64,000 bases of DNA from an uncultured bacterium (GCA_903892035.1 CAITGV010000001.1:91624-155623); one strand, 5' to 3'; counted from the first letter of the stretch, positions 4,692-60,697 are shown. A program made the numbers and translations. Notes: a model not told the origin generated them from the sequence alone.

Positions 4692-4954
4692 ACATACTTT
4701 TTTTGCGTGTTAGTAATAAATCCGAGGATGAGACGCAAAAAGCCCACCACATGGGTTGAGGGCTATTAGACCCTCCATACACCTTTCGATGTACGGCGAT
4801 CAAGCAAACCCCATATGATGGGTTCTTTATGCTTGATCGACTTTATTCGCCATGCCGCCGCTGAAGCGAGGGTTTAGGCTACTTACTTATTCAGTTGTTA
4901 ACAAACAATAGCATTTTCGACGCTATTATTCCAGACCATGATATCGCAGTACTG

Positions 4955-5036: not shown

Positions 5037-6368
5037 ATGGAGACACAGTCATATAGCGCAATGATCGGAACGGCGAAAGTCGTACCGACCGTAAAAGTGA
5101 GATATTGTCTTTATGCGAGAAAATCGACAGAGCAAGATGAGAAGCAAGCTCTGTCTATTGATTCTCAAGTAAAAGAAATGTTACAGATCGCCGAGCGAGA
5201 CGGTTTGGAAGTGATAGACATTAGGAGAGAATCGCACTCGGCAAAAGATTCTGGACAACGACCAGTTTTTAAAGAAATTTTAGAAGATCTGCGGCGAGAT
5301 AGATTCAACGGAATCCTTGCATGGGCACCAGATCGTTTAAGTAGAAACGCTGGCGACCTCGGAAGCGTCGTCGATCTGATGGACGAAAAGCATCTAGTAG
5401 AAATACGAACGTACGGACAACAATTTAGAAATTCGCCGAACGAGAAATTCTTGCTCATGATTCTGTGTTCACAAGCAAAGCTCGAAAATGACAACAAAAG
5501 TATAAACGTGAAGCGAGGTTTAAAAACGAGATGTGAAATGGGACTATGGCCATGTCCCGCCCCTACTGGGTACGTCAAAGAAAAAAGAATGGATCGGAGG
5601 TGTCAGACACTAATAGATCCAGAGCGCGGGGCGATCGTAAAAAAGATTTTCGAGAAGGCGGCGTACGAGAAGTGGAGCGGACGAAAGATATATCACTGGC
5701 TGAAATTCGATCTGAACTTCCGAAGTGCGAACAGTAACAAGAACCTTACTTTGAGCAATATATACATGATGTTGGAAAACCCCTTTTACTACGGGGTTTT
5801 TGAATATCCGAGAAAAAGCGGAAACTGGTACAAAGGAACGTACGAGCCGCTCATCACAAAGGAGCTGTTCGACCAAGTCCAAGGACAGATGAAAAGTCAG
5901 ATCGTCAGATCCGAGAGTAAAGAATTTGCTTTCACGAAACTCATGACATGCGGAATGTGCGAATCTGGAATATGCGCCGACGAGAAATTCAAAAAGCCTA
6001 AAAACGGAAACATTCACCGATATGTCTACTACGGTTGTACCCGATCGAGAGACAAGAATTGCAAGTGCGGATTTATCGAAGAGAAAGAACTAATCAAGCA
6101 ATTTGAGGACATGCTCGACACGATCGACTTGGACGAGATCGGGATAAAGGAAAAGCTCAAGATTGAAGTCGAGCGATTCAAAAAATTCCAGCGAGTGATA
6201 CTAGGTAGTAAGGAAAAAATCGAGATTGGCGATGTCGATATTCGGAACTATACCAAGTACTTACTGCGAGACGGTTCAGATTTAGAGAAACGAGAATTAC
6301 TTGGATGCTTTAAAAGTAAAATAACCCTAAAACAAAAGACGATTTCATTGGCTAAAAACTCAAGTTAG
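5037..6368 (+). CDS. large serine recombinase (resolvase N-terminal domain, recombinase domain and zinc ribbon). The ORF is open from 4938.
   Basis: YARKST catalytic-Ser motif, PDRLSRN, recombinase domain, and C-terminal Cys cluster CGMCESGIC...YYGCTRSRDKNCKC. Confidence 0.85.
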   Translation: METQSYSAMIGTAKVVPTVKVRYCLYARKSTEQDEKQALSIDSQVKEMLQIAERDGLEVIDIRRESHSAKDSGQRPVFKEILEDLRRDRFNGILAWAPDRLSRNAGDLGSVVDLMDEKHLVEIRTYGQQFRNSPNEKFLLMILCSQAKLENDNKSINVKRGLKTRCEMGLWPCPAPTGYVKEKRMDRRCQTLIDPERGAIVKKIFEKAAYEKWSGRKIYHWLKFDLNFRSANSNKNLTLSNIYMMLENPFYYGVFEYPRKSGNWYKGTYEPLITKELFDQVQGQMKSQIVRSESKEFAFTKLMTCGMCESGICADEKFKKPKNGNIHRYVYYGCTRSRDKNCKCGFIEEKELIKQFEDMLDTIDLDEIGIKEKLKIEVERFKKFQRVILGSKEKIEIGDVDIRNYTKYLLRDGSDLEKRELLGCFKSKITLKQKTISLAKNSS

Positions 6369-48179: not shown

Positions 48180-48499
48180 ATATAAAACATATTAACACAA
48201 ATCAAAGATTCATCAATTCCTTTAGTGATTCAATAATATAAGTTGGATTTTTTGTTTCTTCGTTTGGAACCTCATCTTTAAACTTTCCTTTCTTTATCCA
48301 TAATTATTTTTCTTTACACCATTCCATAATTTCCAATGCTTCAGGAAATTCCATATTAGTTTCTGGGTCATGCAATGTCCTTCCCCAGTCAAAAATTATT
48401 GCTTTAATATTCATCTGCGGGTGGTACTAGACGAAGTTAGAACCTTCATAATGCTTAATTCTAGCACTAAATTCTCAATTGTGAACACTTGGTAGGCAT

Positions 48500-49891
48500 T
48501 TAAGCAGACTTAGTATATTTTCCCTCCATATCAGTATGTTTTACTATTTGCTCAATTTTTTCACCATCACCTCTGTCATCTAGTTTTATATAAACTCCGA
48601 CCCTTTCAATCACAGGAAGTAATTGAACTTCATTGTCATAATTTCCACCACCTTTTTCAAGCTGAAACCATACCATTGTCAGTATACTGTCATTTTCTTT
48701 ATAGAGGTCCAAATTGTACCAGATAACGAAATCTAACTCACCCCAATCGCTTGAATCAATTCTAATTGAGGATTTTGGCAAAAGCTCTCCTTTTTCTCTT
48801 ACTACTTTACTTGTTTCTAGTAAACCATCTTCGTCACCACAGTATGCTCCAGACAATAAGTTTACTCTTGTATATTTAGAATCTGTTGAGTTTACAAGAT
48901 GTACTTCAAAAGTGCTATCTTCTTCATTCATTATAAATGCCACAAACGGTTTATCTATCTCTGATTTTACTTTTAGAACAGATACCATTTCTGACTCTTT
49001 CATTTTTTCTTGGAAGTCTGCAAAAGTACTAAGGCAGTCTGCGATGTGTGCCATCAGAAGAAATGTTATCATATCTTCTTTGCTGTGCTCCTCTATATTT
49101 TTAATAACCGCTTTAAACGCAGTCATATCTGCGAGAAAACTTCGTTCAAATGCAGGAATGTCATTATGTTTCCGAAGAATACCAATATCAGATTGTGTAC
49201 GTTTACACAATTCAATTACTTTCTCTGCCATAAATGAACTTTTAAACACGCGACTTATTTCATATAGAATATATGCCAAATTCCATTCAATATAAGAAAT
49301 ATGTCCTTCATCTAAAGCTTGTACCCTGTACAATTCAATATCTATTTCTAAAAGGTCTTGCCTGAGAGGACTTTCAAACCAGCATTCCAATATTGTGGCG
49401 ATAACTTTGCGAGTGTAATGGATTATTTTTTCTTTTGGGGCATTGAACCTATCAAAAGTTTTTTCTCCATCTATTTTATAATCAGCAATAAGCTCTGATG
49501 TGTTTGAGATTATATCGGCGGATTTTAAGAGTAAAGAATCATTTGAGAAAGTTTTGATATGCTCTAGTGCTTCAGCTTTTCGCTCTACCCAAGACAAAGA
49601 CTTGTCTTGCTCTGTCACACTTAAAACCAAATCAGATACTCTCTGACCAAACATATCAGTAATCATTTCTTTAGTGACTTTGTGTTCAGTCACACTATCC
49701 TCAATAGTATCGTGCAGTATTCCAGCGACTACCACATCCTCTGTAGCCCCTGTATTAGCCAGTATTAGCCCCACAGAGAGCGGATGAGTGATGTATGGGA
49801 CATCTTTGCCTTTCCTTTTTTGCTTCTGGTCCAGCTCGTGGGTTTTGATTGCTAAGTTTATTGCTTTTTGAATGCGTGATGTATATATCAT
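48500..49891 (-). CDS. SpoT/Mesh1-type HD-domain (p)ppGpp hydrolase-like domain fused to a ~270-aa unknown C-terminal domain
   Basis: YITHPLSVGLILA...AGILHDTIED...FGQRVSDLV...LLLKSADIISN matches Rel/SpoT HD-domain blocks. No synthetase domain. Confidence 0.6.
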   Translation of the reverse strand: MIYTSRIQKAINLAIKTHELDQKQKRKGKDVPYITHPLSVGLILANTGATEDVVVAGILHDTIEDSVTEHKVTKEMITDMFGQRVSDLVLSVTEQDKSLSWVERKAEALEHIKTFSNDSLLLKSADIISNTSELIADYKIDGEKTFDRFNAPKEKIIHYTRKVIATILECWFESPLRQDLLEIDIELYRVQALDEGHISYIEWNLAYILYEISRVFKSSFMAEKVIELCKRTQSDIGILRKHNDIPAFERSFLADMTAFKAVIKNIEEHSKEDMITFLLMAHIADCLSTFADFQEKMKESEMVSVLKVKSEIDKPFVAFIMNEEDSTFEVHLVNSTDSKYTRVNLLSGAYCGDEDGLLETSKVVREKGELLPKSSIRIDSSDWGELDFVIWYNLDLYKENDSILTMVWFQLEKGGGNYDNEVQLLPVIERVGVYIKLDDRGDGEKIEQIVKHTDMEGKYTKSA

Positions 49892-50142: not shown

Positions 50143-51639
50143 CTATATCACAGAAAGCAGATGCTTCCAAATCGCATACATCGCATATGTATCTAGCTTG
50201 CAATACTTTAAAAGGTCCTGAATCTGAGTTTGCTTATCAGTTTCACTGTATTGGTCTGTGACAATCTTATTCCAAGTATCTGAAGCCACAGCCCCATTTT
50301 GTATGCCAAGCTCTTTATAACTCAAATCCGAGAGCGTAGGCAACACAAATTTGATAGAAGTCTTACCTTTAAATCCCTTGTGAACATACATCTGTTTTTT
50401 AAACACATCTTCCAAATCAACAACTTTTGAGTTTAAGTTTTCTAAGAAATCTTTATATTCAGGGTTTCTTTCAACAAGCTTATTATTGATACCCATTTCA
50501 AAACTTTTATTCCAGACAATTATAGAGCCAGTTTTCGGTAGCTGTTTCTGTAGAGCTTCTATAAATTCTATGTCGGGCTTTGTTGATTCGGAGAATATAA
50601 ATTCGCTGTGGGCTGGCTCTATACTTTCTTCGCTTGCTATATGCAAGGAAAATTGAAATGGTATCTGGTTGAATGGACCATAGCCAGAAAATCTAGGGAT
50701 AGCTGATGGAAATGTCTCGTAATCTAAAAATGATATTGGATACTTAATCGTCTCAAGAAATTCACTGATTGCATTTTTATCAATCAATTTCTTGTCTATC
50801 TGTGCAACTTGAACCTGATTCTTTTGAATATCACTTAGCTCAAAGTCCTCTGGTACCTCTAGTATAGAAAACTTCTCTAGGTTCATATCTACAAGGTCCT
50901 CAAGTTTTTTCTTTGATAAACCGATGCGGGCTATGTCGTGAATGCTGTAATCAGAAACATCAGGATTGGAATACTTGAAAGTCGTACAGTGTGAGCTTCT
51001 ACCTCTGGTGATACATTTACACTCTCCGTGCGGTTCTTCAGTCTGAGATAGTACACCAAAGGCACTATCCATATCAGAGCTGACAGCATCAATAATACCG
51101 TTTACTTTGTCTGTAAAATCTTCTTTAGTAAGTAGCCCATTTAAATCAATGTCTCCCGCACGAATATATTCTTTATTTAAACGCACGAGATATAGTTTGT
51201 TTATAGGTATATTATTTTCTTTCAAAACAACATACTGAAAAGCTAAATCGTTAGAATAGATTTCATCTTTTGCTTTCTTGTTTTCTCCACTATTGGAAGC
51301 CTTTACTTCATAAACATCATACGCTCCTACTTCACTGTTCCAGACAAAAATATCAGAAATCATTTTAAACTTTTCTGTTTCAAATACTGGCTGATATATA
51401 ACTGGTGTTTTCTTTTCAATCAAACTTTTGGTCAATTCTGTATCATCTCTATCTTCCACCAAAACACCATTTGGAAACAACCCTCGTGCGAGCGTATCCA
51501 CATCATTACCAGTCTCAATAATCATCATTTCAAACTCTGAAAGTGGCTGTGATTTATACACCTCAGGCTTGTGAATCTTCAGCCAAGCATTCTTACCGCA
51601 ATCTTGGTATATAAGATAGTTTGTTTTTGATAGTTTCAT
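50143..51639 (-). CDS. DUF2779-like predicted dual nuclease (N-terminal PD-(D/E)xK plus C-terminal DnaQ-like exonuclease motifs)
   Basis: N-terminus LSKTNYLIYQDCGKNAWL. D..YEVK motif. C-terminal FLDYETF and YCKLDTYAMY. 3-nt gap to the RM gene. Confidence 0.45.
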   Translation of the reverse strand: MKLSKTNYLIYQDCGKNAWLKIHKPEVYKSQPLSEFEMMIIETGNDVDTLARGLFPNGVLVEDRDDTELTKSLIEKKTPVIYQPVFETEKFKMISDIFVWNSEVGAYDVYEVKASNSGENKKAKDEIYSNDLAFQYVVLKENNIPINKLYLVRLNKEYIRAGDIDLNGLLTKEDFTDKVNGIIDAVSSDMDSAFGVLSQTEEPHGECKCITRGRSSHCTTFKYSNPDVSDYSIHDIARIGLSKKKLEDLVDMNLEKFSILEVPEDFELSDIQKNQVQVAQIDKKLIDKNAISEFLETIKYPISFLDYETFPSAIPRFSGYGPFNQIPFQFSLHIASEESIEPAHSEFIFSESTKPDIEFIEALQKQLPKTGSIIVWNKSFEMGINNKLVERNPEYKDFLENLNSKVVDLEDVFKKQMYVHKGFKGKTSIKFVLPTLSDLSYKELGIQNGAVASDTWNKIVTDQYSETDKQTQIQDLLKYCKLDTYAMYAIWKHLLSVI

Positions 51640-51641
51640 AA

Positions 51642-53921
51642 CTATTTCAACAGCTCATATTTAAACAATTTTGGTGTGATATATCTTGCGTAGTAGTTCT
51701 TAAGTTTCTTTTTAAGATTCTCTAATTCACCATTGAGTGTTGAGTAGTGATAAACTATTTTATTATTTTCATCTTTCTCCGATGTATTTAATTCCATTTC
51801 AATTTGGTAAGGACCGTACGCTAATTTTTTACTATAGTTTTCTGTCTTCTTAGCTTCAACTAAAACAGCTTCCCATATCTTTACTAATTCTTTTTCGTCA
51901 CCATTTAATTTGAATTTTTCAAGCTGTTTACTTGCTAGTGTGTCATTATCAAAACACAATTCATTTTTATAGAATCGTTTGTCGCTACCAGTAAAAGAAA
52001 TACATTTATTGTATCGAGATAAACATGCAAAGATAAAGCATGATTTCAAGAAGTCTTTATCTTTTGTGTATTTATCACCACCATCACCAGTGGTAAAATA
52101 AACATCTTTTTCATACCACTTTTCTTGAGGGTAAAGTTTTGCTGAAAAAAGTGGTAATTTTTCAAAGTAATTATCGTCTCGCAAATAAAAACCATTTTTT
52201 CTTAAATTTATAGTTGTCCTTGTTAAATTTTTTGCTTGTCCATTAAACATCAAACCGACTAAGTGTAAGTAAGCGATTATATTTTTATTGTAAATATTTT
52301 CTGTAGCAGTGCTTTTCTGTTTTGGTGCTTCATAACCATCCGCTCCACACCAAACACCATTAGTAATATCATCCTTTAGTACTCTTCTGTCAAAATAAAC
52401 TTCATTCGGTGATTTATAACATTTACGAATGATTATGTCTTGAATTTGAAAAATCGTATCATCAGAAACATCAGCTGTATTTTTTGTGTTAATATCAAAA
52501 GCATTCAAAGTAAAATTTTCCTGATTTTTGTCAAAATTTTGCCACAAAATGCAAGAGATTGTTGATGGAGAAGCATGAAAAAATTTGCGATTAAAAGCAA
52601 AACCAAGTTTAAATGTTTTGTTTACAAGTCCAATATTTTTAAAGTATTTTACTGGACTGAATAAAATATAACTATCGGTAGGTTGCCTCAAGTAATAATG
52701 AAACCCAGACCATATAAATAAGTTGGCTAATTCCTTTGATGGAACATTTCCTTTCATTTTTGATTTAAAATTTTTCTTAAATTCAGTTGAAATAAAAGAA
52801 TTTTTACCAACATTACGAGATACTCCAGTTTCCATCGTATCCCCAGAAGCATCACTATATGGTGGGTTCTCAAATAAAATTACCGTACATTTTGAATTAT
52901 CAGTATATTGTTTAATAATTTCATTATTTACAAAATCTTCACTAAGAGCGTCTGCATTTACCACAAAGCCAGCAGAAAATTCTACGTTGTCATCAGTTGG
53001 TGGAATAATATGACGAACACGTCCATTGAAACGTTCTAACAAAACCTTGTATTCATAATATTCATAAGTACTAACAATGGTGTGCTCAAGTTCTTCACTA
53101 GAAAGCTCTGCTTCCAAATTTCCAGTCCCCGCACATCGGTCTAAAATAATATAATCATTACCCTTAGGAACAAGCTTGATTGCTTCACGAACAAGCTCTA
53201 CAGATTTTTTTGCATAAGCAGGTGGAGTAAAGAATGCACCGAGTTCTTTTTTTATCAAATTATCATTCAACTTATCCATCAAATACTTAAATTTGATGTT
53301 TGTTTTTTCCTTAAATGGCAGAATATAGTCCTTGAACTTTATTGGTTTGCGAATTTCGCCACCGTCTTTATCATCAAGATAATCACTTTTCTTTGCAGTT
53401 GGATTTTCTCGGTAAAATTTTTCCGCCCATCCAACAATACAATCCTCATCAATTTTTATTTTAGTGAAATTATTTTCTTTTAGTATTTTTAAAATCTTGT
53501 CTGCACCCATACCCGTAGAGTAGTCAATTTCTATTGGCTGTTTTTTTATTACAAAACCATCATTATTTTTACTTGCTCCACCATAATAAATTTGGTGAAT
53601 TTCTTCAAAATAATCTCCGCTATCAAAAATATTTGCCTTGCTCTGATTCAACGAAATAAGCAAAATATTTTTGGGCACTGGATTACCAGTAATTCTTAGT
53701 CGTGAAAGATACTTAATTGCCTGAAAAAGTACTTGCTGTGTGTTGTTGATGTTTAATTTAAATTCAAAAATATTCCCTTTATTAACACCATCGGTGTTAG
53801 CAATTAAAATATCATTTTCATCAATGTTTATTCCAAAATTCTTGAAAAAGTGAAGTTGACCTTCCCGTTCAGTGGTAAAAGTTTTATTTAGTGTTTTTTT
53901 ATTTTTAGTTTCTGTTTTCAT
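51642..53921 (-). CDS. type IIG/IIL restriction-modification enzyme (PD-ExK nuclease fused to gamma-class N6-adenine methyltransferase and TRD)
   Basis: N-terminal D..EFK motif. GAFFTPP (motif X), DRCAGTGN (motif I), NPPY (motif IV). ORF open to 53972. Confidence 0.65.
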   Translation of the reverse strand: MKTETKNKKTLNKTFTTEREGQLHFFKNFGINIDENDILIANTDGVNKGNIFEFKLNINNTQQVLFQAIKYLSRLRITGNPVPKNILLISLNQSKANIFDSGDYFEEIHQIYYGGASKNNDGFVIKKQPIEIDYSTGMGADKILKILKENNFTKIKIDEDCIVGWAEKFYRENPTAKKSDYLDDKDGGEIRKPIKFKDYILPFKEKTNIKFKYLMDKLNDNLIKKELGAFFTPPAYAKKSVELVREAIKLVPKGNDYIILDRCAGTGNLEAELSSEELEHTIVSTYEYYEYKVLLERFNGRVRHIIPPTDDNVEFSAGFVVNADALSEDFVNNEIIKQYTDNSKCTVILFENPPYSDASGDTMETGVSRNVGKNSFISTEFKKNFKSKMKGNVPSKELANLFIWSGFHYYLRQPTDSYILFSPVKYFKNIGLVNKTFKLGFAFNRKFFHASPSTISCILWQNFDKNQENFTLNAFDINTKNTADVSDDTIFQIQDIIIRKCYKSPNEVYFDRRVLKDDITNGVWCGADGYEAPKQKSTATENIYNKNIIAYLHLVGLMFNGQAKNLTRTTINLRKNGFYLRDDNYFEKLPLFSAKLYPQEKWYEKDVYFTTGDGGDKYTKDKDFLKSCFIFACLSRYNKCISFTGSDKRFYKNELCFDNDTLASKQLEKFKLNGDEKELVKIWEAVLVEAKKTENYSKKLAYGPYQIEMELNTSEKDENNKIVYHYSTLNGELENLKKKLKNYYARYITPKLFKYELLK

Positions 53922-54046
53922 AGGCATCCGTACTGAGATGCCTAAAAACAAAATAGGCACCCCGAGTAGCAAGGTGCCCCAAGATAACAGCTTTCGCCGT
54001 TGGTCCTGATTCCCTGACTAGGGTGCCCATTATGGGCAGGACCAAC
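53922..54046. other. cluster of nested GC-rich hairpins in the divergent intergenic region
   Basis: AGGCATC/GATGCCT, GGCACC/GGTGCC, and GTTGGTCCTG/CAGGACCAAC enclosing CCCT..AGGG and CCCA..TGGG. Confidence 0.45.
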
Positions 54047-54170
54047 AACAAAAAGCATAAAACTTCTTGAAAAACTATTATCTTGGGGCAACATAAATAT
54101 AGCAAAAAATACTTAATTTTACCAGTCAAATATGATAAAATGTCTTTGTTTTCAATAAACCACCATTACA

Positions 54171-55283
54171 ATGAATAAACTGCATTCAAAACTATATACT
54201 GCAAAAAAACTCCTACTGAGCCATTTGGAAGTGAACGGTAAAAGAAACACTTTCTCTAAGCTAGATTTTTCAAAAAGCACTCTAACCGCTTTAGAGCAAG
54301 ATGGGCTAATAAAATTTGATAAGCCTTTATTGAGCAAGAAATATATCAATAATTATCAAAGTGCCAGAAAAACATTTGAAAGCATACAAGAAAAAAAGCG
54401 TCTAGCTTCTCTTTCTTTTGGTGGACCTCGAAGCTCGTATGGTCTTGAGCAGACAAAGAAAGAATTTGAAAATTATCTAGCTGATAAATACTGTAGTCTC
54501 GGAAAAGGGCTATATGAAAAACTTCAAGAAAGCCCAGAGATTGAAATTGACCACTTAAGTTTTCAGAGTATCGCAACGAAAGATTTTGCAAACGATTCTT
54601 TAAGTTTTAACCTAGAATTTTCACCTGAAAAAATACAAGAGTTTTTGAATGAGAAAATGGATTTGTTTATTACAGACGAGTTAGAATTGTCTGATGACCA
54701 AGCCCATAGATTTTTAAGCTATGAGAAACAAAAAGAGCAGTTTTCTATTGGTATTGTGAAGCTAACAAATACTGGATATTCTGCAAATAATTTAAAGATA
54801 GATTATATGCAGATTTTTAAGAAAGAGGATTTATTGCAAACAAACTTTGTTGAAACAGCTCTAGCTATGGAAAGAGAGGGATTGATAGAGGTAAAAAATA
54901 TCATAGAAACAACGCCAGCAAACCCTGTAGTTATAACTAGTCAAGATGTATTTAAATATCCTACGATTATACAGCTTAAGGTTCTTGGTAAATTCTCGCC
55001 TTACTATGAACAAGTTTATAAGAAATACTCACCTAAAACACAGGAATCAACCCAAGAAGCCTTAACGCCAAACAATAAGAAATTGAAACTACTTGAAAAA
55101 TTGAAAGAGGAAAAAGATTTAATGCCTAAATGGAAAACAGTTATGGATATTCATCCCCCTAAATTCTCTAGTTGGATGAGAGAGTGCGGTATTGATGACT
55201 ACACCCAGCTAAGAAATATTCTTGATAGTCTTCAAGAAGAAGAATTACTTATTTCTATTAAGTCTGTTAATCCAGCTATGTGA
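54171..55283 (+). CDS. hypothetical protein (cargo of the integrated element)
   Basis: 370-aa ORF with no recognised motif. Confidence 0.35.
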   Translation: MNKLHSKLYTAKKLLLSHLEVNGKRNTFSKLDFSKSTLTALEQDGLIKFDKPLLSKKYINNYQSARKTFESIQEKKRLASLSFGGPRSSYGLEQTKKEFENYLADKYCSLGKGLYEKLQESPEIEIDHLSFQSIATKDFANDSLSFNLEFSPEKIQEFLNEKMDLFITDELELSDDQAHRFLSYEKQKEQFSIGIVKLTNTGYSANNLKIDYMQIFKKEDLLQTNFVETALAMEREGLIEVKNIIETTPANPVVITSQDVFKYPTIIQLKVLGKFSPYYEQVYKKYSPKTQESTQEALTPNNKKLKLLEKLKEEKDLMPKWKTVMDIHPPKFSSWMRECGIDDYTQLRNILDSLQEEELLISIKSVNPAM

Positions 55284-55801
55284 TGATGAATTATCTACAA
55301 ATACAATTTCCTGAAGACTTTGAGAAAAGGTATAAAAAATACAAGGACCAGATTTTGCATTCCTCTACTAAAAATACTTTCTCAAAGATACCCTCAGATG
55401 AACCAACAGTTGCCACCCAAGAAACAGAAAATCAAAAAGGTGTTAAATCAAACCCTGAATCAGGCAAGAAAATGGCTTCAATTGAGTATAACCCAATCAC
55501 TGGTGATGGAATTGTAAATACAACAAGTTTTAAATTCAAAGACCACCAGCCTGAATATAGGTTATTTAAACTTCTGTGCGAAAAGGTTAATAATAAAATT
55601 CAACGCTATGACGTTCTTGTAGCAATCCATTTTTATGAAGATGGTGCAGATGTTGAACCAGCTAGAAAGTCTCTTGAGACTGAAGAAATAAATAAAGTTG
55701 TTAAAAAAATCAGAGGGAAAACTGGGCTTACTACAAAACAGCTAGTAAATAACAATGGAAATGTAACATTACTCGGGAATATAGTACCAAATCAAACCTA
55801 A
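55280..55801 (+). CDS. hypothetical protein
   Basis: Overlaps the upstream stop by 4 nt. No motif. Confidence 0.3.
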   Translation: MMMNYLQIQFPEDFEKRYKKYKDQILHSSTKNTFSKIPSDEPTVATQETENQKGVKSNPESGKKMASIEYNPITGDGIVNTTSFKFKDHQPEYRLFKLLCEKVNNKIQRYDVLVAIHFYEDGADVEPARKSLETEEINKVVKKIRGKTGLTTKQLVNNNGNVTLLGNIVPNQT

Positions 55802-56167
55802 AACCATACTGAATCTAGTCTAAATCGCATCTAACTCGAATAAGTGAATAAATATAGGATGATACTAAGCCTATATTTTTTTTGGCTGGGGAAATCTTGA
55901 ACCCCCTGTAAGCCCTTTGCTTACTCGGCAGGTGCCTCACGGCGTTCAAGAACCTACCGAGTAAATAGTGGGCTTGCCTATGTTACCAGAACAAGCCATA
56001 ACAGAATACAAGAAGCTCTACGAAGCCCGTTACGGCGTCGTTTTAAGCGATGCTGAGGCATCGTTGCGGGCGAATAACCTTGTAAATTTCTATAAGGCTA
56101 CTTTGGGGTCGGAACATCCAAATACAACGAAAGTGGTCGATGAACCTCGTTGTAATTATTAACAAAT

Positions 56168-56515
56168 ATGGCAAAAATAAATTGTCATAAAATTTACAGC
56201 AGTATGAGCTACACAGTAAAAGAACTAGCAAACGAGTTAGGAATATCAGAAAAAACAATTTTCCGTTGGATTGAAAATGGTTTAAGAATTGTAGATGGAA
56301 GCAAGAAACCCATCCTGATAATGGGTGTGGAAGTAAAAGATTTTACAAGAAGAAAAGATTCAAAAAAGAAAGTAGGTAAAATTAAAAGGAATGAGTTTTT
56401 GTGCCTAACGTGTAAGAAAGGGAGACGTGCAAAAAGAGGTTCAATTAAGAAACTGAAGAGCAAGAAACTAGGAGAATGTTATGTCTGTAACGGGAAAATG
56501 AGCAGAACAATCTAG
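56168..56515 (+). CDS. excisionase/MerR-like HTH protein with C-terminal zinc ribbon
   Basis: YTVKELANELGISEKTIFRWIENG HTH and CLTC..CYVC. Immediately upstream of the tyrosine integrase. Confidence 0.45.
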   Translation: MAKINCHKIYSSMSYTVKELANELGISEKTIFRWIENGLRIVDGSKKPILIMGVEVKDFTRRKDSKKKVGKIKRNEFLCLTCKKGRRAKRGSIKKLKSKKLGECYVCNGKMSRTI

Positions 56516-56594
56516 CTCGACCAAAAGGACTATGTAGTATTGTCTCTTCTAGTTTAAATGTCCATTATTAACTATTAACGCATCTATTAAAATT

Positions 56595-57701
56595 ATGACA
56601 AAAACAACGCTCGAAAATGAGCAAATAAAGAGGGATTTTTTTGACCAACTAAAGGGAGCAAAAGGGTTTGCAAAAAGCTCAGTAGTAGCTTTTTCAGATG
56701 CAATATCCCAGTGGCAAAAATTCACTGAAAATGAAAGTTTTTCAAAGTTTACTAAAGAAGAAGCGACAGCTTTTGTGGAGTGGTTAAGCACCAAGCCATC
56801 TAAAACAAAAACTGGTAAAATCGCTCTAGTTACTCAAGACAATTATCTTCGCAGAGTGAAGAAGTTTTTTGAGTGGCTGTCTGAGCAATCGGGATATAAA
56901 AGCAAAATATCAAAAAATGAAGTAGAGTGGCTGAGGCTTTCCAAGACCGATGCTCGTATTGCAAGAATGGGGACTACCCGCACAGAGCCTGTATTTGAGG
57001 AGGTAAAAAAAGTTATAGAAAGTATAAAAGGTAAAAGTGAAGTAGATATGAGGGATAGAGCCATTATTTCTCTAGCATTGATTACAGGGGCTCGTATTTC
57101 CGCCATTACCTCTTTGAAAATGCGTAGCTTCGACAAGAAAAAGAATGTCGTGTATCAAAGTCCAAAAGATGGTATTAAAACAAAAAGCTCAAAGCTGATA
57201 GCTACCTTGATTTTCCCTATTGAATGGCGTGAACCAGAAAGATATTTTGTCGAATGGTATGAGTATCTAGAGTCAAAAGGTTTCCGCCCAGATGACCCTA
57301 TTTTCCCAGCAACATTTAATGATATAGGTAATAAAAATACTAGCAAAGCAGTGGTCAGCAAGCGTTTTTGGAGTAATGCTAACTCTGCACGAAATATCTT
57401 TAAAACAAGATGTTTGGATGCTGGCATTCCTTACTTCAATCCTCACTCCTTTCGTCACCTAATTGTGGGTATGTGGATGGAGGAGATACTTCCCGAGAAA
57501 TATAAAAAGGCTATCAGCCTGAATCTTGGTCACGAAAGTGTTTCTACTACCTTTGATTCATATGGTCATAGTAATATGACCCAAAATGAGGTCTTTGGAA
57601 TTATTAAAAATCTCAAGAATTTAAAAGCAGAGAGTAAAAGCACTTCGATAACACAAGAAGAAAGGGAGGCTATCGAGAAGCTACTTAAAAGAAGTGCATA
57701 A
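56595..57701 (+). CDS. tyrosine site-specific integrase
   Basis: N-terminal SAM-like domain. Catalytic R (ITGARIS), HSFRHL (HxxR) and the SYGH Tyr motif. Confidence 0.8.
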   Translation: MTKTTLENEQIKRDFFDQLKGAKGFAKSSVVAFSDAISQWQKFTENESFSKFTKEEATAFVEWLSTKPSKTKTGKIALVTQDNYLRRVKKFFEWLSEQSGYKSKISKNEVEWLRLSKTDARIARMGTTRTEPVFEEVKKVIESIKGKSEVDMRDRAIISLALITGARISAITSLKMRSFDKKKNVVYQSPKDGIKTKSSKLIATLIFPIEWREPERYFVEWYEYLESKGFRPDDPIFPATFNDIGNKNTSKAVVSKRFWSNANSARNIFKTRCLDAGIPYFNPHSFRHLIVGMWMEEILPEKYKKAISLNLGHESVSTTFDSYGHSNMTQNEVFGIIKNLKNLKAESKSTSITQEEREAIEKLLKRSA

Positions 57702-57742
57702 CACCACTTGCTATGTAAAGAATAGTAAAGTATACTAGATAT

Positions 57743-58690
57743 ATGAATAATAATAAATTGGGTAAATTAAGCAAGGTAGACTTGCGGGAAATTTGGAAAA
57801 ATGAAGAGTATGACTTTTCAGCTTGGCTGGCTGAAGAAGAAAATCTTGCTCTTTTGTCCGACGAACTTGGTGTTTCAATAAAATTGATTGAGAGAGAAGC
57901 GGGTGTTGGAAAATACAGCTTGGATATTTTAGCGGAAGAGGAAGGCACGGGGCATAAAATCGTGATAGAGAACCAACTTGAAAATACTGACCACGACCAT
58001 TTGGGAAAAATCATCACGTACTCTGCTGGGCACGATGCGAAAATCATCGTTTGGATTTTCAAAGACATCTGTGAAGAGCACCGCAGTGCGATTGACTGGC
58101 TCAACGACAACACAGGCGATGACCTTCACTTTTTCGCTGTGAAGTTGGAAGTATGGAAAATCAACGAATCCGAATCAGCTCCGAAGTTTCAAATAATTTG
58201 TAAGCCGAACGAGTGGAAAAAAATTGTAAAACATAGTTCGGGAAGTAAGGATTTGGGAAGTACTGAATTGAAAAAACTTGATTTTTGGACAAAACTCAAA
58301 TCATACGCTTTAGATAAAAAAGTAACTCTATTCACACGAACACCCAACCCGTATCACTGGTATGATATATCTATTGGAACTTCTGGAGCTCATATTTCAC
58401 TCACTATCGGTATTAGAGAAAGTAAAATTGGTTGTGAACTTTATATTGACGATAACAAGCCCTTATTTGAGCATCTCAAAACAAAAAAGATGGAGCTTGA
58501 AGGACAGCTCAACGGGAAGCTTGAGTGGATAGTAGCAGAAAAGGCGTGTCGCATCGTGTTACGAAAAGAAAATGCCAACTTGGATGATGAAGAAAATACC
58601 AGCACCTTATTTGATTGGATGATTGAAAAAGCGGTCGTTTTTCATAAAGTATTTAGTCCGTTAGTAAAGCAATACAAAAATGAGCAATAA
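57743..58690 (+). CDS. hypothetical protein with PD-(D/E)xK-like core (possible DUF4268-like)
   Basis: YSLDILAEEEGTGHKIVIENQLENTDHDHLGKIITY block. Confidence 0.35.
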   Translation: MNNNKLGKLSKVDLREIWKNEEYDFSAWLAEEENLALLSDELGVSIKLIEREAGVGKYSLDILAEEEGTGHKIVIENQLENTDHDHLGKIITYSAGHDAKIIVWIFKDICEEHRSAIDWLNDNTGDDLHFFAVKLEVWKINESESAPKFQIICKPNEWKKIVKHSSGSKDLGSTELKKLDFWTKLKSYALDKKVTLFTRTPNPYHWYDISIGTSGAHISLTIGIRESKIGCELYIDDNKPLFEHLKTKKMELEGQLNGKLEWIVAEKACRIVLRKENANLDDEENTSTLFDWMIEKAVVFHKVFSPLVKQYKNEQ

Positions 58691-58871
58691 AGATTTTTAC
58701 ACAGCCAAAGAACTGGCAGATAAACTGCGAGTAAATATAATGACCATCTATCGCTATATAGGTGCGAAAGGTGCAAAGAAATTAAATGCCTATAAATTTG
58801 GCAAGGAATTTAGAATTGATAAGAAAGAGTTTGATAGTTTCTTGAACAAGGCAAAAACTAATGGAAAATAA
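58680..58871 (+). CDS. excisionase-family HTH DNA-binding protein
   Basis: YTAKELADKLRVNIMTIYRYI HTH. Overlaps the serine recombinase start. Confidence 0.5.
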   Translation: MSNKDFYTAKELADKLRVNIMTIYRYIGAKGAKKLNAYKFGKEFRIDKKEFDSFLNKAKTNGK

Positions 58872-60468
58872 AACTGTCAAAATGATATATGGTGGCTACC
58901 ACAGAAAATCTACCGAATCTGAGGATAGGCAGGTTCTTTCTATTGATTCTCAAATTGATGAGGGTAAGAGAATCGCAGATAGCTTAGGGATAAAAGTGAA
59001 ACCTGAGCATATTCTTTCAGAATCAAAATCAGCCAAAGTAACTGGTAAGCGATTAAAGTTCCAGCAAATGCTCAGTATGATTGAGCGAGGAGAAATAAAT
59101 GGAATCATTGTATGGCACGCAGACAGGCTTTCAAGAAATGCTATGGACTCAGCTTTACTTATTGACCTGATAGATAAAGGAAAACTTATTGAAATAGTTA
59201 CGCCAGCACAAACATTCAGGAATACTCCGTTAGATAAATTTATGTTTATGTTCCAGTGTAGTCAGGCAAAAATGGAGAACGACAAAAAAGGCGTTGATGT
59301 AACAAGAGGACTTCATAAAAAAGCTAGTCTCGGAATGTATCCTGCACCAGCACCTGTTGGTTACAAAAATGATAAGTATGCAGAGAAAGGAAACAAAGTG
59401 CCACTAGTAGATGCGGAAAGATTCCCACTGGTGCGAAAAATGATAGACCTTATGCTTACAGGAAATTATACTGTGGCGGAGATATGGAGAATCGCAAGAA
59501 ACGAATGGGGCTTTACTATGCCGAGTGGAAAGAAAATCAGTAGACCTACTGTTTATAGAATTTTCTCAAACCCTTTTTATTATGGGAGATACGAATATCC
59601 TCTCAGAAGCGGTAAGTGGTATGACGCTATCCATACTCCGATGATGGATGTGGAGGAGTACGACAAGATTCAATTTATCCTTGGCAAGAAAGGTAAACCT
59701 AGACCGAAGTCTCACATATTTGATTTTACAGGAATGATGCACTGCGGAGAGTGCGGAGCAAGTATTACAGCCGAGACAAAAATTAAAAGGCAGAAAAATG
59801 GGAACATTCATACCTATGTTTACTATCACTGCACTAAAAGAATAAATCCAAACTGCACGCAAGGCTCTATTGAGGAGAAAGATTTAAAGAAGCAAATTGT
59901 AGCTGAAATTGAGAGTATTGAAATACCGCCAGAATTTCATAGTTTTGCTATGAAATGGTTTAAGAAAGAGAACGAAAAAGAAATTGATGGTCGTAATGCT
60001 GTTATAAAAGCCAATGAGAAAGCCTACAAGGCTTGTTTAGCGAAGATTGACGGCTTAACCGATATGAGAGCGGGTGGCGAAATATCAGCCGTAGAATTTG
60101 CTGAAAGAAAAATAAAATTCCTTGCAGAAAAGAAACAACTTGATAATTTATACGGTGATACAAGTAAGAGAGTAGATAGGTGGCTAGATACTGCCGATAA
60201 TATGTTTACTTTTATTGAAAACGCAAAAGATAAATTTGAAAATGGAACGATTCAGACAAGACGCTCAATACTTTCAACACTAGGTTCAGACCTCATACTA
60301 AAGGATAAAATACTCAGTATTGATATAGATAAATCACTCTTTCCAATAAAAAGAGTCTCAAAAGAGGCTAATGCAATTAGTAAACGGTTAGAACCTCTCA
60401 AAACTATTGATAAACAAAGAGAATTTGACCTTTTGTGTGATAAAAATCCCGTAATGCGGAGGCGGTGA
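58861..60468 (+). CDS. large serine recombinase (paralog of the 5037..6368 gene)
   Basis: YHRKST catalytic Ser, ADRLSRN, and zinc ribbon CGECGA...YYHCTKRINPNC. By eye about 45 % identical to the first recombinase. Confidence 0.85.
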   Translation: MENKTVKMIYGGYHRKSTESEDRQVLSIDSQIDEGKRIADSLGIKVKPEHILSESKSAKVTGKRLKFQQMLSMIERGEINGIIVWHADRLSRNAMDSALLIDLIDKGKLIEIVTPAQTFRNTPLDKFMFMFQCSQAKMENDKKGVDVTRGLHKKASLGMYPAPAPVGYKNDKYAEKGNKVPLVDAERFPLVRKMIDLMLTGNYTVAEIWRIARNEWGFTMPSGKKISRPTVYRIFSNPFYYGRYEYPLRSGKWYDAIHTPMMDVEEYDKIQFILGKKGKPRPKSHIFDFTGMMHCGECGASITAETKIKRQKNGNIHTYVYYHCTKRINPNCTQGSIEEKDLKKQIVAEIESIEIPPEFHSFAMKWFKKENEKEIDGRNAVIKANEKAYKACLAKIDGLTDMRAGGEISAVEFAERKIKFLAEKKQLDNLYGDTSKRVDRWLDTADNMFTFIENAKDKFENGTIQTRRSILSTLGSDLILKDKILSIDIDKSLFPIKRVSKEANAISKRLEPLKTIDKQREFDLLCDKNPVMRRR

Positions 60469-60542
60469 GATTCGAACTCACGGTCCTTTAAAGGGACGAC
60501 GGTTTAGTAAACCGTTGATTTAAACCACTCATCCACGCCTCC
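60457..60542 (-). tRNA. class-II (long variable arm, Ser-like) tRNA with anticodon loop UUACUAA, i.e. apparent anticodon ACU. CCA is not encoded.
   Basis: Hand-folded. Acceptor GGAGGCG/CGCCUCC, T-arm GUGAG-UUCGAAU-CUCAC, anticodon stem ACGGU/ACCGU, variable stem GUCC/GGAC. The last 12 nt are overlapped by the recombinase stop. Confidence 0.55.
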
Positions 60543-60610
60543 AGTGGTAGCTTAACTTATAACATTTTATGGAGAAAAAAACAAAAATATGCTACTCTTT
60601 CTTGGTATTT

Positions 60611-60695
60611 GGAGACGTGTCGGAGTGGTCTAACGTACCTCCTTGCTAAGGAGGCAGGCTTCACGGCCTCGCGAGTTCGAATCTCGCCGTCTCCG
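60611..60695 (+). tRNA. tRNA-Ser (anticodon GCU)
   Basis: Acceptor GGAGACG/CGUCUCC, anticodon stem CCUCC/GGAGG with loop UUGCUAA, long variable arm, T-arm GCGAG-UUCGAAU-CUCGC, G73. Confidence 0.85.
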
Positions 60696-60697
60696 CT

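What the first reader, a model, noticed from the sequence alone, without database searches (positions are those of the whole stretch)
50143..53972. Type IIG restriction-modification enzyme in a tight operon with a DUF2779-like dual nuclease
The 776-aa ORF carries a PD-ExK nuclease motif ahead of gamma-class N6A MTase motifs (FFTPP, NPPY). That makes it a single-chain MmeI-like RM enzyme. Three nucleotides downstream is a 498-aa protein. Its N-terminus (LSKTNYLIYQDCGKNAWL, D..YEVK) looks like a Cas4/RecB-like nuclease. Its C-terminus (FLDYETF, YCKLDTYAMY) looks like a DnaQ-type exonuclease. A standalone RM enzyme needs no partner. A co-transcribed dual nuclease therefore suggests an RM-coupled DNA-degradation or acquisition module.
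Basis: partly seen in the sequence, partly recalled or inferred. Interest (0 to 1): 0.6.

Follow-up and report, generated by a model that had tools for sequence, protein, structure and literature searches.

The report
Solitary restriction enzyme beside resident nuclease
A horizontally acquired single-chain restriction-modification enzyme from an unannotated family lies two bases upstream of a resident DUF2779 double-nuclease gene, but the pairing is found only in the closest relative, so it is most likely a local juxtaposition and not a new defence module.

Summary
Both ORFs are real and all quoted motifs are present. The upstream gene most likely starts at the ATG at 53927 (761 aa, not 776), and the spacer is 2 nt (TAG-tt-ATG).

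The 761-aa protein has no hit in Pfam, NCBIfam, PADLOC, PHROGs or PDB sequences. Its invariant D..ExK/QxxxY and FxTP/DRCAGTG/NPPY motifs, its mosaic TRD-like variable segments and its AlphaFold model all support a type IIG-like nuclease-methyltransferase. The best Foldseek hit is the type IIG enzyme BpuSI (5e-8), followed by BsaXI.

The 498-aa protein is a bona fide DUF2779: an N-terminal Cas4-like domain with four cysteines and a C-terminal DEDDy exonuclease. This architecture is already published.

The proposed functional coupling is not supported:
- No DUF2779 gene lies beside the RM-like gene in 9 looked-up contexts or in 80 metagenomic loci.
- Only 1 of 80 DUF2779 loci carries the RM-like gene, and that locus is the nearest relative.
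- DUF2779's usual neighbours are housekeeping genes (PheRS, DsbA, RpoD, GyrB).
- The RM-like gene has a distinct GC content (0.30 against 0.36) and abuts an integrase/recombinase island.

Side finding: a conserved structured leader RNA of about 150 nt lies upstream of the RM-like gene and has no Rfam match.

The parts
51642..53927 (-).
   Evidence: ORF. Homologues of about 750 aa align from this Met. The source assembly aa. AF2 model pLDDT 82.4 with best Foldseek hit BpuSI.
53583..53885 (-). N-terminal PD-(D/E)xK-type nuclease domain (about aa 15-115), with invariant D46, E55-F-K57, Q69 and Y73 (QxxxY)
   Evidence: Invariant columns in 34 homologues. Beta-strand 52-57 followed by helix 63-79 in the AF2 model. 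The Foldseek alignment to BpuSI spans 532 columns, though which residues it covers is not reported. Domain boundaries are approximate.
52518..53252 (-). Gamma-class N6-adenine methyltransferase domain (about aa 226-470): motif X GAF(F/Y)TP, motif I (I/L)DRCAGTG, motif IV NPPY
   Evidence: Invariant F232, T234, P235, D263-G269 and N354-Y357. Foldseek hits to PacII, M.BseCI and HsdM. Sub-threshold N6_Mtase match in 4 of 34 members. Includes a hypervariable loop at aa 361-400.
52128..52517 (-). Hypervariable TRD-like segment (about aa 471-600)
   Evidence: Identity falls to 12-55% here in relatives that are 85-100% identical elsewhere. The distant homologues P0069 and P0095 share this segment at 60-85%.
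51645..52127 (-). Highly conserved Cys-rich C-terminal domain (aa 601-761), function unknown
   Evidence: Invariant W604, D615, D623, N640, C642, C658 and others. pLDDT above 90. No structural counterpart was identified.
51640..51641 (-). 2-nt spacer (tt) between the TAG stop of the RM-like gene and the ATG of DUF2779
   Evidence: Sequence read directly. No terminator-like site between the genes.
50143..51639 (-). 498-aa DUF2779 dual-nuclease gene
   Evidence: PF11074, E = 1.9e-38, 132 bits against a cutoff of 23.3. 2504 homologues of about 497 aa. AF2 model pLDDT 87.9.
50935..51639 (-). Cas4/RecB-like PD-(D/E)xK domain of DUF2779 (about aa 1-235): invariant D96, E111, K113, Q135 and four Cys (C14, C207, C209, C218)
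   Evidence: Invariant columns. Foldseek hits to Cas4 4r5q (4e-4), Cas4/Cas1 7mi4, RecE and MGME1. Weak PADLOC Cas4 match.
50146..50742 (-). DEDD(y) 3'-5' exonuclease-like domain of DUF2779 (about aa 300-498): invariant D306, E308, D408, Y479, D483
   Evidence: Pfam DUF2779 match at residues 304-428 and a weak RNase_H_2 match at 352-494. Invariant columns. Foldseek hits to Maelstrom, RNase T and ExoI.
53942..54090 (-). Structured leader RNA of about 150 nt upstream of the RM-like gene, ending in a hairpin plus U-run
   Evidence: MFE -59.1 kcal/mol, z = -5.76. Conserved upstream of two homologues, in L015 and L116. 98% of cells paired, 10 compensatory pairs against 1-2 in slid controls. No Rfam match.
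54171..60542 (+). Adjacent divergent integrative island: hypothetical genes, tyrosine integrase, PDC-S11/DUF4268, two excisionase-like HTH proteins, and a large serine recombinase abutting tRNA-Ser
   Evidence: Pfam, PADLOC PDC-S11 at 1e-116, PHROGs integration/excision families, tRNAs.

Best explanation
The 761-aa gene encodes a solitary, horizontally mobile, type IIG-like restriction-modification enzyme from a family that current annotation libraries do not cover.

Inferred mechanism:
- The variable TRD-like segments (aa ~361-400 and ~471-600) read a DNA site.
- The NPPY methyltransferase domain uses SAM to N6-methylate an adenine in that site and so protects host DNA.
- The N-terminal D46/E55/K57 nuclease domain cuts unmodified DNA.

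The gene lies at the edge of a tRNA-Ser-linked integrase/recombinase island and directly upstream of a resident DUF2779 gene. DUF2779 encodes a lineage-conserved enzyme that joins a Cas4-like (probably Fe-S) nuclease to a DEDDy exonuclease and most likely works in general DNA-end processing or repair.

The 2-nt junction probably causes read-through co-transcription. It reflects gene packing in a very compact genome and shared ancestry with one close relative, not a dedicated two-protein system.

Shown here: gene identities, folds, motif conservation, non-conservation of the linkage, the compositional difference. Inferred: enzymatic activities, co-transcription, insertion history.
For: RM-like identity:
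- D46, E55-x-K57, Q69xxxY73, FxTP, DRCAGTG and NPPY are invariant in 34 homologues.
- The AF2 model (pLDDT 82.4, pTM 0.70) best matches the type IIG enzyme BpuSI (E = 5e-8, 532 columns), then the type IIB enzyme BsaXI, then gamma-class N6A methyltransferases.
- Conservation is mosaic. Residues 1-360 and 601-761 are 85-100% identical in relatives whose segments 361-400 and 481-600 are 12-55% identical. Distant homologues share those same segments at 60-85%. This is the behaviour expected of exchangeable specificity modules in IIG/IIL enzymes (PMC4833311).

Solitary and mobile:
- The gene stands alone or beside varying defence/MGE genes: GmrSD, DUF4238, Schlafen/AlbA_2, a SieB-like gene, relaxase, a type III RM system.
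- A homologue sits on a 9-kb MOBP plasmid.
- A small Xre-type HTH gene lies 4 nt upstream in the closest relatives.
- Gene GC stays at 0.29-0.32 whether host flanks are 0.30 or 0.42. In the window it is 0.304, against 0.356 for both DUF2779 and the HD gene.

No conserved linkage:
- DUF2779 is absent from 9 looked-up contexts and from all 80 metagenomic loci, 51 of which have at least 1.5 kb downstream.
- The RM-like gene occurs in 1 of 80 DUF2779 loci. None of the 66 loci with at least 2.5 kb of upstream flank has it.
- DUF2779's neighbours are PheRS, DsbA, RpoD, GyrB, racemase and MurG.
- About 20 of 74 DUF2779 genes have an unrelated same-strand gene ending within 60 nt upstream, so tight junctions are the norm for this gene.

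DUF2779 identity; literature PMC3985635 and PMC13621843.
Against: - The pair, with a 2-5 nt spacer, is retained at 81% nucleotide identity in the nearest relative (L019) even though the DNA downstream of DUF2779 differs. Some local selective value cannot be excluded.
- Neither the boundaries of the island nor an insertion scar next to the RM-like gene could be identified: no att-like direct repeat was found.
- No biochemical evidence exists for any activity. No sequence profile (Pfam, NCBIfam, PADLOC or PDB sequences) recognises the 761-aa protein, so its classification rests on motifs and a predicted structure. TM-scores are low (0.23), as expected for a multi-domain protein.
- DUF2779 also has some mobile or defence-like neighbours: AAA_15/21 ATPases, an SNF2 helicase, HerA, and serine recombinases nearby in 9 of 80 loci. 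'Resident housekeeping gene' is therefore not certain.
Confidence: 0.75

Rival explanations
1. In this narrow Nomurabacteria-like lineage the two genes form a real functional operon. The RM-like enzyme cuts foreign DNA, and the co-expressed Cas4-like/DEDD nuclease resects or degrades the fragments. This would finish off restricted DNA, or recycle nucleotides in an organism that cannot make them.
For: - A 2-nt spacer with no terminator between the genes.
- The pair is kept with a 5-nt spacer in the nearest relative, L019, although the downstream genes differ.
- Both DUF2779 domains keep all their catalytic residues.
Against: - The linkage is seen in only 1 of 80 DUF2779 loci and in none of about 89 contexts of the RM-like family.
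- The RM-like gene is found alone on small plasmids and in many genomes.
- The two genes differ in composition.
- DUF2779 is tightly packed against many unrelated genes.
Confidence: 0.1
2. The 761-aa protein is not a classical restriction enzyme. It could be an orphan or regulatory methyltransferase whose nuclease-like domain has another role, or a component of a different kind of defence, for example one that depends on DNA modification or causes abortive infection.
For: - No RM profile in Pfam, NCBIfam or PADLOC recognises it.
- It has an unusually conserved Cys-rich C-terminal domain for which no counterpart was identified.
- Variants of about 512-547 aa start near profile position 210-250 and so lack the nuclease domain.
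- In three loci it is preceded by a structured leader RNA and not by a C protein.
Against: - The nuclease catalytic triad and the QxxxY motif are invariant across phyla.
- The best structural matches are bifunctional RM enzymes.
- The TRD-like mosaicism is typical of IIG/IIL enzymes.
- It sits in defence islands and on mobilisable elements.
Confidence: 0.1
3. DUF2779 is itself an accessory, defence-island gene in these genomes. Both genes would then be independent cargo of a variable hotspot, still without a specific partnership.
For: - The genes tightly upstream of DUF2779 include AAA_15/21/13 ATPases, an SNF2 helicase, a HerA-like ATPase and an MTES_1575 helicase-nuclease.
- Serine-recombinase homologues lie nearby in 9 of 80 loci.
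- Homologues at 45-57% identity occur in Hyphomicrobium, Zixibacteria and Margulisbacteria.
- The slot downstream of DUF2779 differs between the window and L019.
- The 2026 paper discusses the family under 'immunity connections'.
Against: - The most frequent neighbours are housekeeping genes: PheRS, DsbA, RpoD, GyrB.
- DUF2779's GC equals that of the resident genes.
- The family has a uniform length and about 60% identity across Paceibacteria.
- The Mycoplasma homologue is quasi-essential.
Confidence: 0.15

Closest known systems
RM.BpuSI (type IIG restriction endonuclease, PDB 3S1S; PMC3185434)
   Same: - One polypeptide with the same domain order: N-terminal PD..ExK endonuclease, helical connector, gamma-class N6-adenine methyltransferase (NPPY), then TRD.
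- It is the best Foldseek hit of the AF2 model (E = 5e-8, 532 columns).
   Different: - Only 14% identity, and no sequence-profile match.
- The window protein is shorter (761 aa against 870 aa).
- Its nuclease motif is D-x8-ExK followed by QxxxY, where BpuSI has PD-x15-ExK.
- It has a highly conserved Cys-rich C-terminal domain.
- The BpuSI paper's methods section lists separate M1 and M2 genes. This family is usually solitary.
MmeI family (type IIL; PMC4833311)
   Same: - A solitary bifunctional RM enzyme in which the nuclease and methyltransferase share one TRD, so specificity can change by TRD variation.
- The overall plan of nuclease, connector, methyltransferase, TRD and C-terminal helical region resembles this protein.
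   Different: - No MmeI_N, MmeI_hel, MmeI_Mtase, MmeI_TRD or MmeI_C Pfam match.
- MmeI is not among the top 50 Foldseek hits.
- Motif I is DRCAGTG. By my own recollection, not checked here, MmeI has a DPACGSG-type motif I.
- 761 aa against 919 aa.
DUF2779 / PF11074 (e.g. MMSYN1_0389 of JCVI-syn3.0; RNase H-like family F.17)
   Same: - Full-length family member (132 bits).
- Cas4-like N-terminal nuclease with the D/E/K triad, plus a C-terminal DEDD(y) exonuclease with Tyr in place of His, exactly as described.
   Different: - This Patescibacteria subgroup is shorter (498 aa) and keeps all four Cas4-type cysteines (C14, C207, C209, C218). MMSYN1_0389 has only two.
- It scores far below the NCBIfam UU173 cutoff (57 bits against 225).
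CRISPR-associated Cas4
   Same: The fold and catalytic residues of the N-terminal half of DUF2779, including the four Cys (Foldseek 4r5q and 7mi4).
   Different: - No cas1, cas2 or any other cas gene among the called neighbours within about 10 kb.
- It is fused to a DEDD exonuclease.
- It is a 'solo Cas4-like' protein and not part of an adaptation module.

Membership tests
Type IIG/IIL bifunctional RM enzymes (BpuSI/MmeI kind) | Single polypeptide with an N-terminal PD-(D/E)xK endonuclease domain | tested here: met
   D46, E55-x-K57 and Q69xxxY73 are invariant in 34 homologues. The beta/alpha pattern in the AF2 model fits. The best Foldseek hit, BpuSI, aligns over 532 columns. All in silico.
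Type IIG/IIL bifunctional RM enzymes (BpuSI/MmeI kind) | Gamma-class N6-adenine methyltransferase motifs in the order X - I - IV (FxTP ... DxxxGxG ... NPPY) | tested here: met
   GAF(F/Y)TP 230-235, (I/L)DRCAGTG 262-269 and NPPY 354-357 are invariant. Structural hits to PacII, M.BseCI and HsdM.
Type IIG/IIL bifunctional RM enzymes (BpuSI/MmeI kind) | A shared TRD after the methyltransferase domain that varies between close relatives | tested here: met
   Mosaic identity profile: 12-55% in aa 361-400 and 481-600 against 85-100% elsewhere. The same segments are shared with otherwise distant homologues.
Type IIG/IIL bifunctional RM enzymes (BpuSI/MmeI kind) | Recognition by the curated sequence models of the known families (Pfam N6_Mtase, Eco57I, MmeI_*; PADLOC RM models; PDB sequences) | tested here: not met
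   No hit at threshold in Pfam, NCBIfam, PADLOC, PHROGs or PDB sequences. N6_Mtase is sub-threshold in 4 of 34 members. Divergent relatives are also unmatched.
Type IIG/IIL bifunctional RM enzymes (BpuSI/MmeI kind) | SAM-dependent site-specific methylation, and cleavage of unmodified DNA at a fixed offset | not testable with these tools
   Requires a methylome and in vitro cleavage assays.
Type IIG/IIL bifunctional RM enzymes (BpuSI/MmeI kind) | Functions without a dedicated partner gene (solitary occurrence) | tested here: met
   Variable or absent neighbours in 9 looked-up contexts and 80 metagenomic loci. A homologue lies on a 9-kb mobilisable plasmid. A methyltransferase encoded elsewhere in those genomes cannot be excluded.
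DUF2779 (PF11074) | Pfam model match above the gathering threshold | tested here: met
   E = 1.9e-38, 132 bits against a cutoff of 23.3, residues 304-428.
DUF2779 (PF11074) | N-terminal Cas4/RecB-like nuclease with a conserved D/E/K triad | tested here: met
   D96, E111, K113, Q135 and four Cys are invariant in 27 sequences. Foldseek hits to Cas4 4r5q, 7mi4 and RecE.
DUF2779 (PF11074) | C-terminal DEDD(h/y) exonuclease residues | tested here: met
   D306, E308, D408, Y479 and D483 are invariant. Weak RNase_H_2 match. Foldseek hits to Maelstrom, RNase T and ExoI.
DUF2779 (PF11074) | Nuclease activities | not testable with these tools
   No family member has been characterised biochemically, according to PMC13621843.
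   1 of 80 DUF2779 loci, the nearest relative only. None of about 89 contexts of the RM-like family. No RM family among the recurrent DUF2779 neighbours.
CRISPR adaptation module (Cas4 with Cas1/Cas2) | Adjacency to cas1/cas2 or a CRISPR array | tested here: not met
   The called genes within about 10 kb carry no cas families. PADLOC gives only a weak Cas4 match to DUF2779 itself.

The most novel reading that the evidence does not exclude
The 761-aa protein represents a widespread but entirely unannotated lineage of type IIG-like RM enzymes. The lineage has more than 3,500 sequences in about 830 clusters at 50% identity, found in Patescibacteria, Bacillota and Planctomycetota. It has its own conserved Cys-rich C-terminal domain. 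In some Patescibacteria its expression would be governed by a previously undescribed structured leader RNA of about 150 nt, acting like a riboswitch or attenuator in place of a controller protein. In the Nomurabacteria-like lineage the gene may in addition have been recruited into an operon with the DUF2779 nuclease.
Probability: 0.2. Interest if true: 0.55.

Novelty: new member of a known kind. Interest (0 to 1): 0.3.

Why it matters
The headline idea, an RM enzyme wired to a dual nuclease as a degradation or acquisition module, would have been a new kind of defence system. The evidence says it is a juxtaposition, so that idea should not be pursued on the basis of this locus.

Two things of modest value remain:
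- A sizeable family of predicted single-chain RM enzymes is invisible to Pfam, NCBIfam, PADLOC and PGAP, where members are annotated 'hypothetical protein'. Defence-system censuses therefore miss it, particularly in Patescibacteria, whose defence repertoires are considered sparse. Its mosaic TRD segments could interest enzyme engineers.
- A structured leader RNA upstream of some members would be an unusual way to control a toxic RM gene, if it proves to be regulatory.

Tried and rejected
- **Sequence-profile identification of the 761-aa protein.** Pfam, NCBIfam, PADLOC and PHROGs, phmmer against PDB, and a 34-sequence profile against PDB all gave nothing.
- **WIV_dom.** A recurrent weak Pfam match (14 of 34 members) turned out to be a 23-residue sub-threshold stretch and was dismissed.
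- **Divergent relatives.** Those from the deep search also have no Pfam domains.
- **C-protein idea.** Small upstream ORFs are common, but only those of the closest relatives are Xre-type HTH proteins. The rest have no match, and at least one (in L116) is in fact the structured leader.
- **Island boundaries.** No convincing att-like direct repeats were found in 49.5-62 kb.
- **More copies of the leader.** A 15-base pattern scan of viral contigs gave 52 hits. None matched the covariance model, so they are chance. The model found only its three training sequences in about 1.3 Mb of held loci. Rfam gave no credible hit for the leader.
- **Phage carriage.** tblastn against 50,697 phage records found no match.

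Full report
**Observation.** The minus strand carries two long ORFs at 51642-53972 (776 aa from a TTG) and 50143-51639 (498 aa). Both are real genes. The first has more than 3,500 full-length homologues of about 750 aa, and the second has more than 2,500 of about 497 aa. Three details need correcting.
The source assembly calls a 761-aa product. The extra 15 codons overlap a hairpin plus T-run at 53979-53955. The gene is therefore 51642-53927.
- The junction reads AAA TAG tt ATG AAA, a 2-nt spacer.
- No terminator-like site lies between the genes, and the promoter-like matches in the region are no more frequent than in shuffled sequence. Co-transcription is plausible but was not shown.

**What the 761-aa protein is.** No curated library recognises it. 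Pfam, NCBIfam, PADLOC and PHROGs all return nothing, as do phmmer and a 34-sequence profile against all PDB sequences. Only 4 of 34 family members give even a sub-threshold N6_Mtase match. RefSeq plasmid copies are annotated 'hypothetical protein'.

Several lines of evidence still point to a nuclease-methyltransferase.
- An alignment of 34 homologues (52-88% identity; Patescibacteria, a Planctomycete, a Clostridium, gut metagenomes) has invariant D46, E55-F-K57, Q69 and Y73. This is a D..ExK motif followed by QxxxY.
- It also has the gamma-class methyltransferase motifs in the order X-I-IV: GAF(F/Y)TP, (I/L)DRCAGTG and NPPY.
- An AlphaFold2 model built on this alignment is confident (pLDDT 82.4, pTM 0.70).
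- Its best Foldseek matches in the PDB are the type IIG enzyme BpuSI (E = 5e-8, 532 aligned columns) and the type IIB enzyme BsaXI, followed by PacII, M.BseCI and type I HsdM methyltransferases.
- BpuSI has the plan of N-terminal PD..ExK nuclease, helical connector, M.TaqI-like N6A methyltransferase and TRD (PMC3185434). MmeI adds a C-terminal helical region (PMC4833311).

The identity profile is strikingly mosaic. Against relatives of about 75% overall identity, residues 1-360 and 601-761 are 85-100% identical, while 361-400 and 481-600 fall to 12-55%. The distant Planctomycete homologues (53% overall) share exactly those segments at 60-85%. That is the signature of exchangeable specificity modules. 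A profile search of 1.84 billion cluster representatives finds only 830 relatives (277 at E <= 1e-30), so the family is compact and well separated from the generic N6_Mtase families. The search also shows recurrent forms of about 512-547 aa that lack the nuclease domain. Divergent members also have no Pfam domain. I therefore accept 'type IIG-like single-chain RM enzyme' at the level of architecture and fold. It is not a member of the MmeI, Eco57I or N6_Mtase sequence families. The very conserved Cys-rich C-terminal domain (aa 601-761) remains unexplained.

**What the 498-aa protein is.** It matches PF11074/DUF2779 at 132 bits, against a cutoff of 23.3. In 27 homologues the following residues are invariant:
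- the Cas4/RecB triad D96, E111 and K113, plus Q135;
- four cysteines (C14, C207, C209, C218);
- the DEDDy set D306, E308, D408, Y479 and D483.

The AF2 model (pLDDT 87.9) matches Cas4 (4r5q), the Cas4-Cas1 fusion (7mi4), RecE and MGME1 with its N-terminal half. Its C-terminal half matches Maelstrom, RNase T and ExoI. This dual-nuclease architecture is already published (PMC3985635, family F.17; PMC13621843 on the quasi-essential MMSYN1_0389).

**Is the pairing meaningful? From the RM-like side.** I looked up nine homologues spanning 53-88% identity. None has DUF2779 nearby (tblastn). What lies immediately downstream of the gene varies:
- nothing recognisable;
- a DUF4238 gene at the same 2-nt spacing (six distinct contigs);
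- GmrSD;
- an AAA ATPase;
- a His_Phos gene.

The wider contexts in which homologues were found include next to a relaxase on an integrative element, in a defence island carrying a type III RM system, and next to RecG.

A metagenome scan returned 80 further loci (45-89% identity). None has DUF2779, and 51 of them have at least 1.5 kb of downstream sequence. A sample of the downstream genes includes GmrSD, Schlafen/AlbA_2, a SieB-like gene, HD_4, dUTPase_2 and gyrB. A 38%-identical homologue lies on a 9-kb MOBP plasmid of Limosilactobacillus with no DUF2779.

**From the DUF2779 side.** A scan of one genome per species returned 80 loci. Only L019 carries the RM-like gene. L019 is the nearest relative, with a DUF2779 that is 85% identical. 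None of the 66 loci with at least 2.5 kb of upstream flank carries it. A Pfam scan of 128 immediate neighbours gave the following counts:
- PheRS subunits: up to 16 members;
- DsbA/thioredoxin: 9;
- RpoD: 6;
- GyrB: 4;
- also racemase, MurG and TerC;
- a minority of ATPases and helicases.

No RM or methyltransferase family appears among the recurrent neighbours. About 20 of 74 DUF2779 genes have an unrelated same-strand gene ending within 60 nt upstream. A tight junction is therefore normal for this gene in these compact genomes.

**Composition and context.** The RM-like gene has the lowest GC of its neighbourhood (0.304; GC3 0.231). DUF2779 and the downstream HD gene are both at 0.356. Family members keep a GC of 0.29-0.32 whether their host flanks are 0.30 or 0.42, and in L019 the RM fragment is at 0.266 against 0.333 for DUF2779. 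Divergently upstream lies an integrative island (54.2-60.5 kb). It carries a tyrosine integrase, the candidate defence gene PDC-S11/DUF4268 (PADLOC 1e-116), two excisionase-like HTH proteins, and a large serine recombinase whose 3' end overlaps a tRNA-Ser gene. I could not define att sites.

**The one exception.** L019 and the window are colinear at 81% nucleotide identity from inside the RM-like gene to exactly the DUF2779 stop codon. L019 has a 5-nt spacer. Similarity then stops, apart from a 77-nt intergenic patch. The pair therefore predates the split of two close relatives. That is compatible with simple inheritance and does not by itself show coupling, but it keeps a lineage-specific operon as a minor rival explanation.

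**Verdict.** The domain calls are right. The most likely reading (about 0.75) is that a solitary, mobile, type IIG-like RM gene from an unannotated family landed next to a resident DUF2779 DNA-end-processing gene.

**Side finding.** The 150 nt upstream of the RM-like gene (53942-54090, minus strand) fold far more stably than shuffled sequence (-59.1 kcal/mol, z = -5.8).
- The element is conserved upstream of two homologues, in L015 and L116. The 1-nt and 2-nt indels between copies rule out a conserved ORF.
- 98% of cells are paired, and 10 pairs keep pairing through changes on both sides, against 1-2 in slid controls.
- It has no Rfam match.
- It ends in a hairpin plus U-run. The base of that hairpin (GGCA) could alternatively pair with the 5' UGCC. 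That would be a riboswitch-like or attenuator-like layout, but this is inference.
- Only three copies are known, two of them nearly identical. It remains a lead and not a finding.

Noticed in passing
window 53942-54090 (minus strand); also L015 7825-7976 and L116 3689-3842: A structured RNA of about 150 nt lies upstream of the RM-like gene. It has a multi-stem junction plus a terminator-like hairpin (z = -5.8). 98% of cells are paired, and 10 pairs are compensatory against 1-2 in slid controls. It has no Rfam match. Only three copies were found, so it is a possible novel cis-regulatory leader.
   Followed up: partly
window 54171-60696: An integrative island lies divergent from the RM-like gene. 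It carries two hypothetical genes, an HTH protein, a tyrosine integrase (56595-57701), PDC-S11/DUF4268 (57743-58690; PADLOC 1e-116), an excisionase-like HTH protein and a large serine recombinase (58861-60468). The recombinase ORF overlaps tRNA-Ser at 60456-60542 (-), and a second, inverted tRNA-Ser lies at 60611-60696 (+). No att repeats were found.
   Followed up: partly
window 48500-49891 (minus strand); L174 5399-6298; L175 5874-6785: A 463-aa protein with an HD_4 (RelA/SpoT-hydrolase-like) domain follows DUF2779 in the window. HD_4 genes of about 300 aa lie 110-140 nt downstream of RM-like family genes in L174 and L175 (tblastn for both; Pfam confirmed for L174 only). The HD slot is replaced by other genes in the close relative L019, and a 77-nt conserved intergenic patch lies at window 48417-48493.
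   Followed up: partly
window 4758-4880 (minus strand) and 5088-6131: A LOOT RNA (Rfam RF03000, 76 bits) lies next to a second serine-recombinase homologue that is 41% identical to the one at 58861-60468.
   Followed up: no
L023, L032, L052, L054, L060, L070, L077, L091, L097: Homologues of the window's large serine recombinase lie within 10 kb of DUF2779 in 9 of 80 loci. In five of them the recombinase is upstream and divergent, as in the window. This may mark a recurrent integration hotspot near DUF2779.
   Followed up: no
L040 8859-10004, L054 8263-9972, L058 2534-4750, L060 7145-9985: AAA_15, AAA_21 or AAA_13 ABC-type ATPase genes end within 40 nt upstream of DUF2779 in four loci. SNF2, HerA-like and MTES_1575 helicase-nuclease genes do so in three others. 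This hints that DUF2779 sometimes sits in defence-like contexts.
   Followed up: no
proteins P0267, P0275, P0279, P0290, P0295, P0299, P0302, P0304, P0305, P0310, P0321: Recurrent members of the RM-like family of about 512-547 aa start at profile position ~210-250, so they lack the N-terminal nuclease domain. They may be methyltransferase-only forms or split systems.
   Followed up: no
window 51645-52127 (aa 601-761 of the RM-like protein): The C-terminal domain is very conserved and confidently modelled. Cysteines C642 and C658 are invariant, and C630 and C635 are nearly invariant. No structural or sequence counterpart was identified.
   Followed up: partly
L102-L107 and L109-L110 (P0006 contexts): In the 86-88% identical homologues, a 48-67-aa Xre-type HTH gene (HTH_3) lies 4-10 nt upstream. 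This resembles an RM controller protein. In most of these loci a DUF4238 gene starts 2 nt downstream, the same spacing as DUF2779 in the window.
   Followed up: partly
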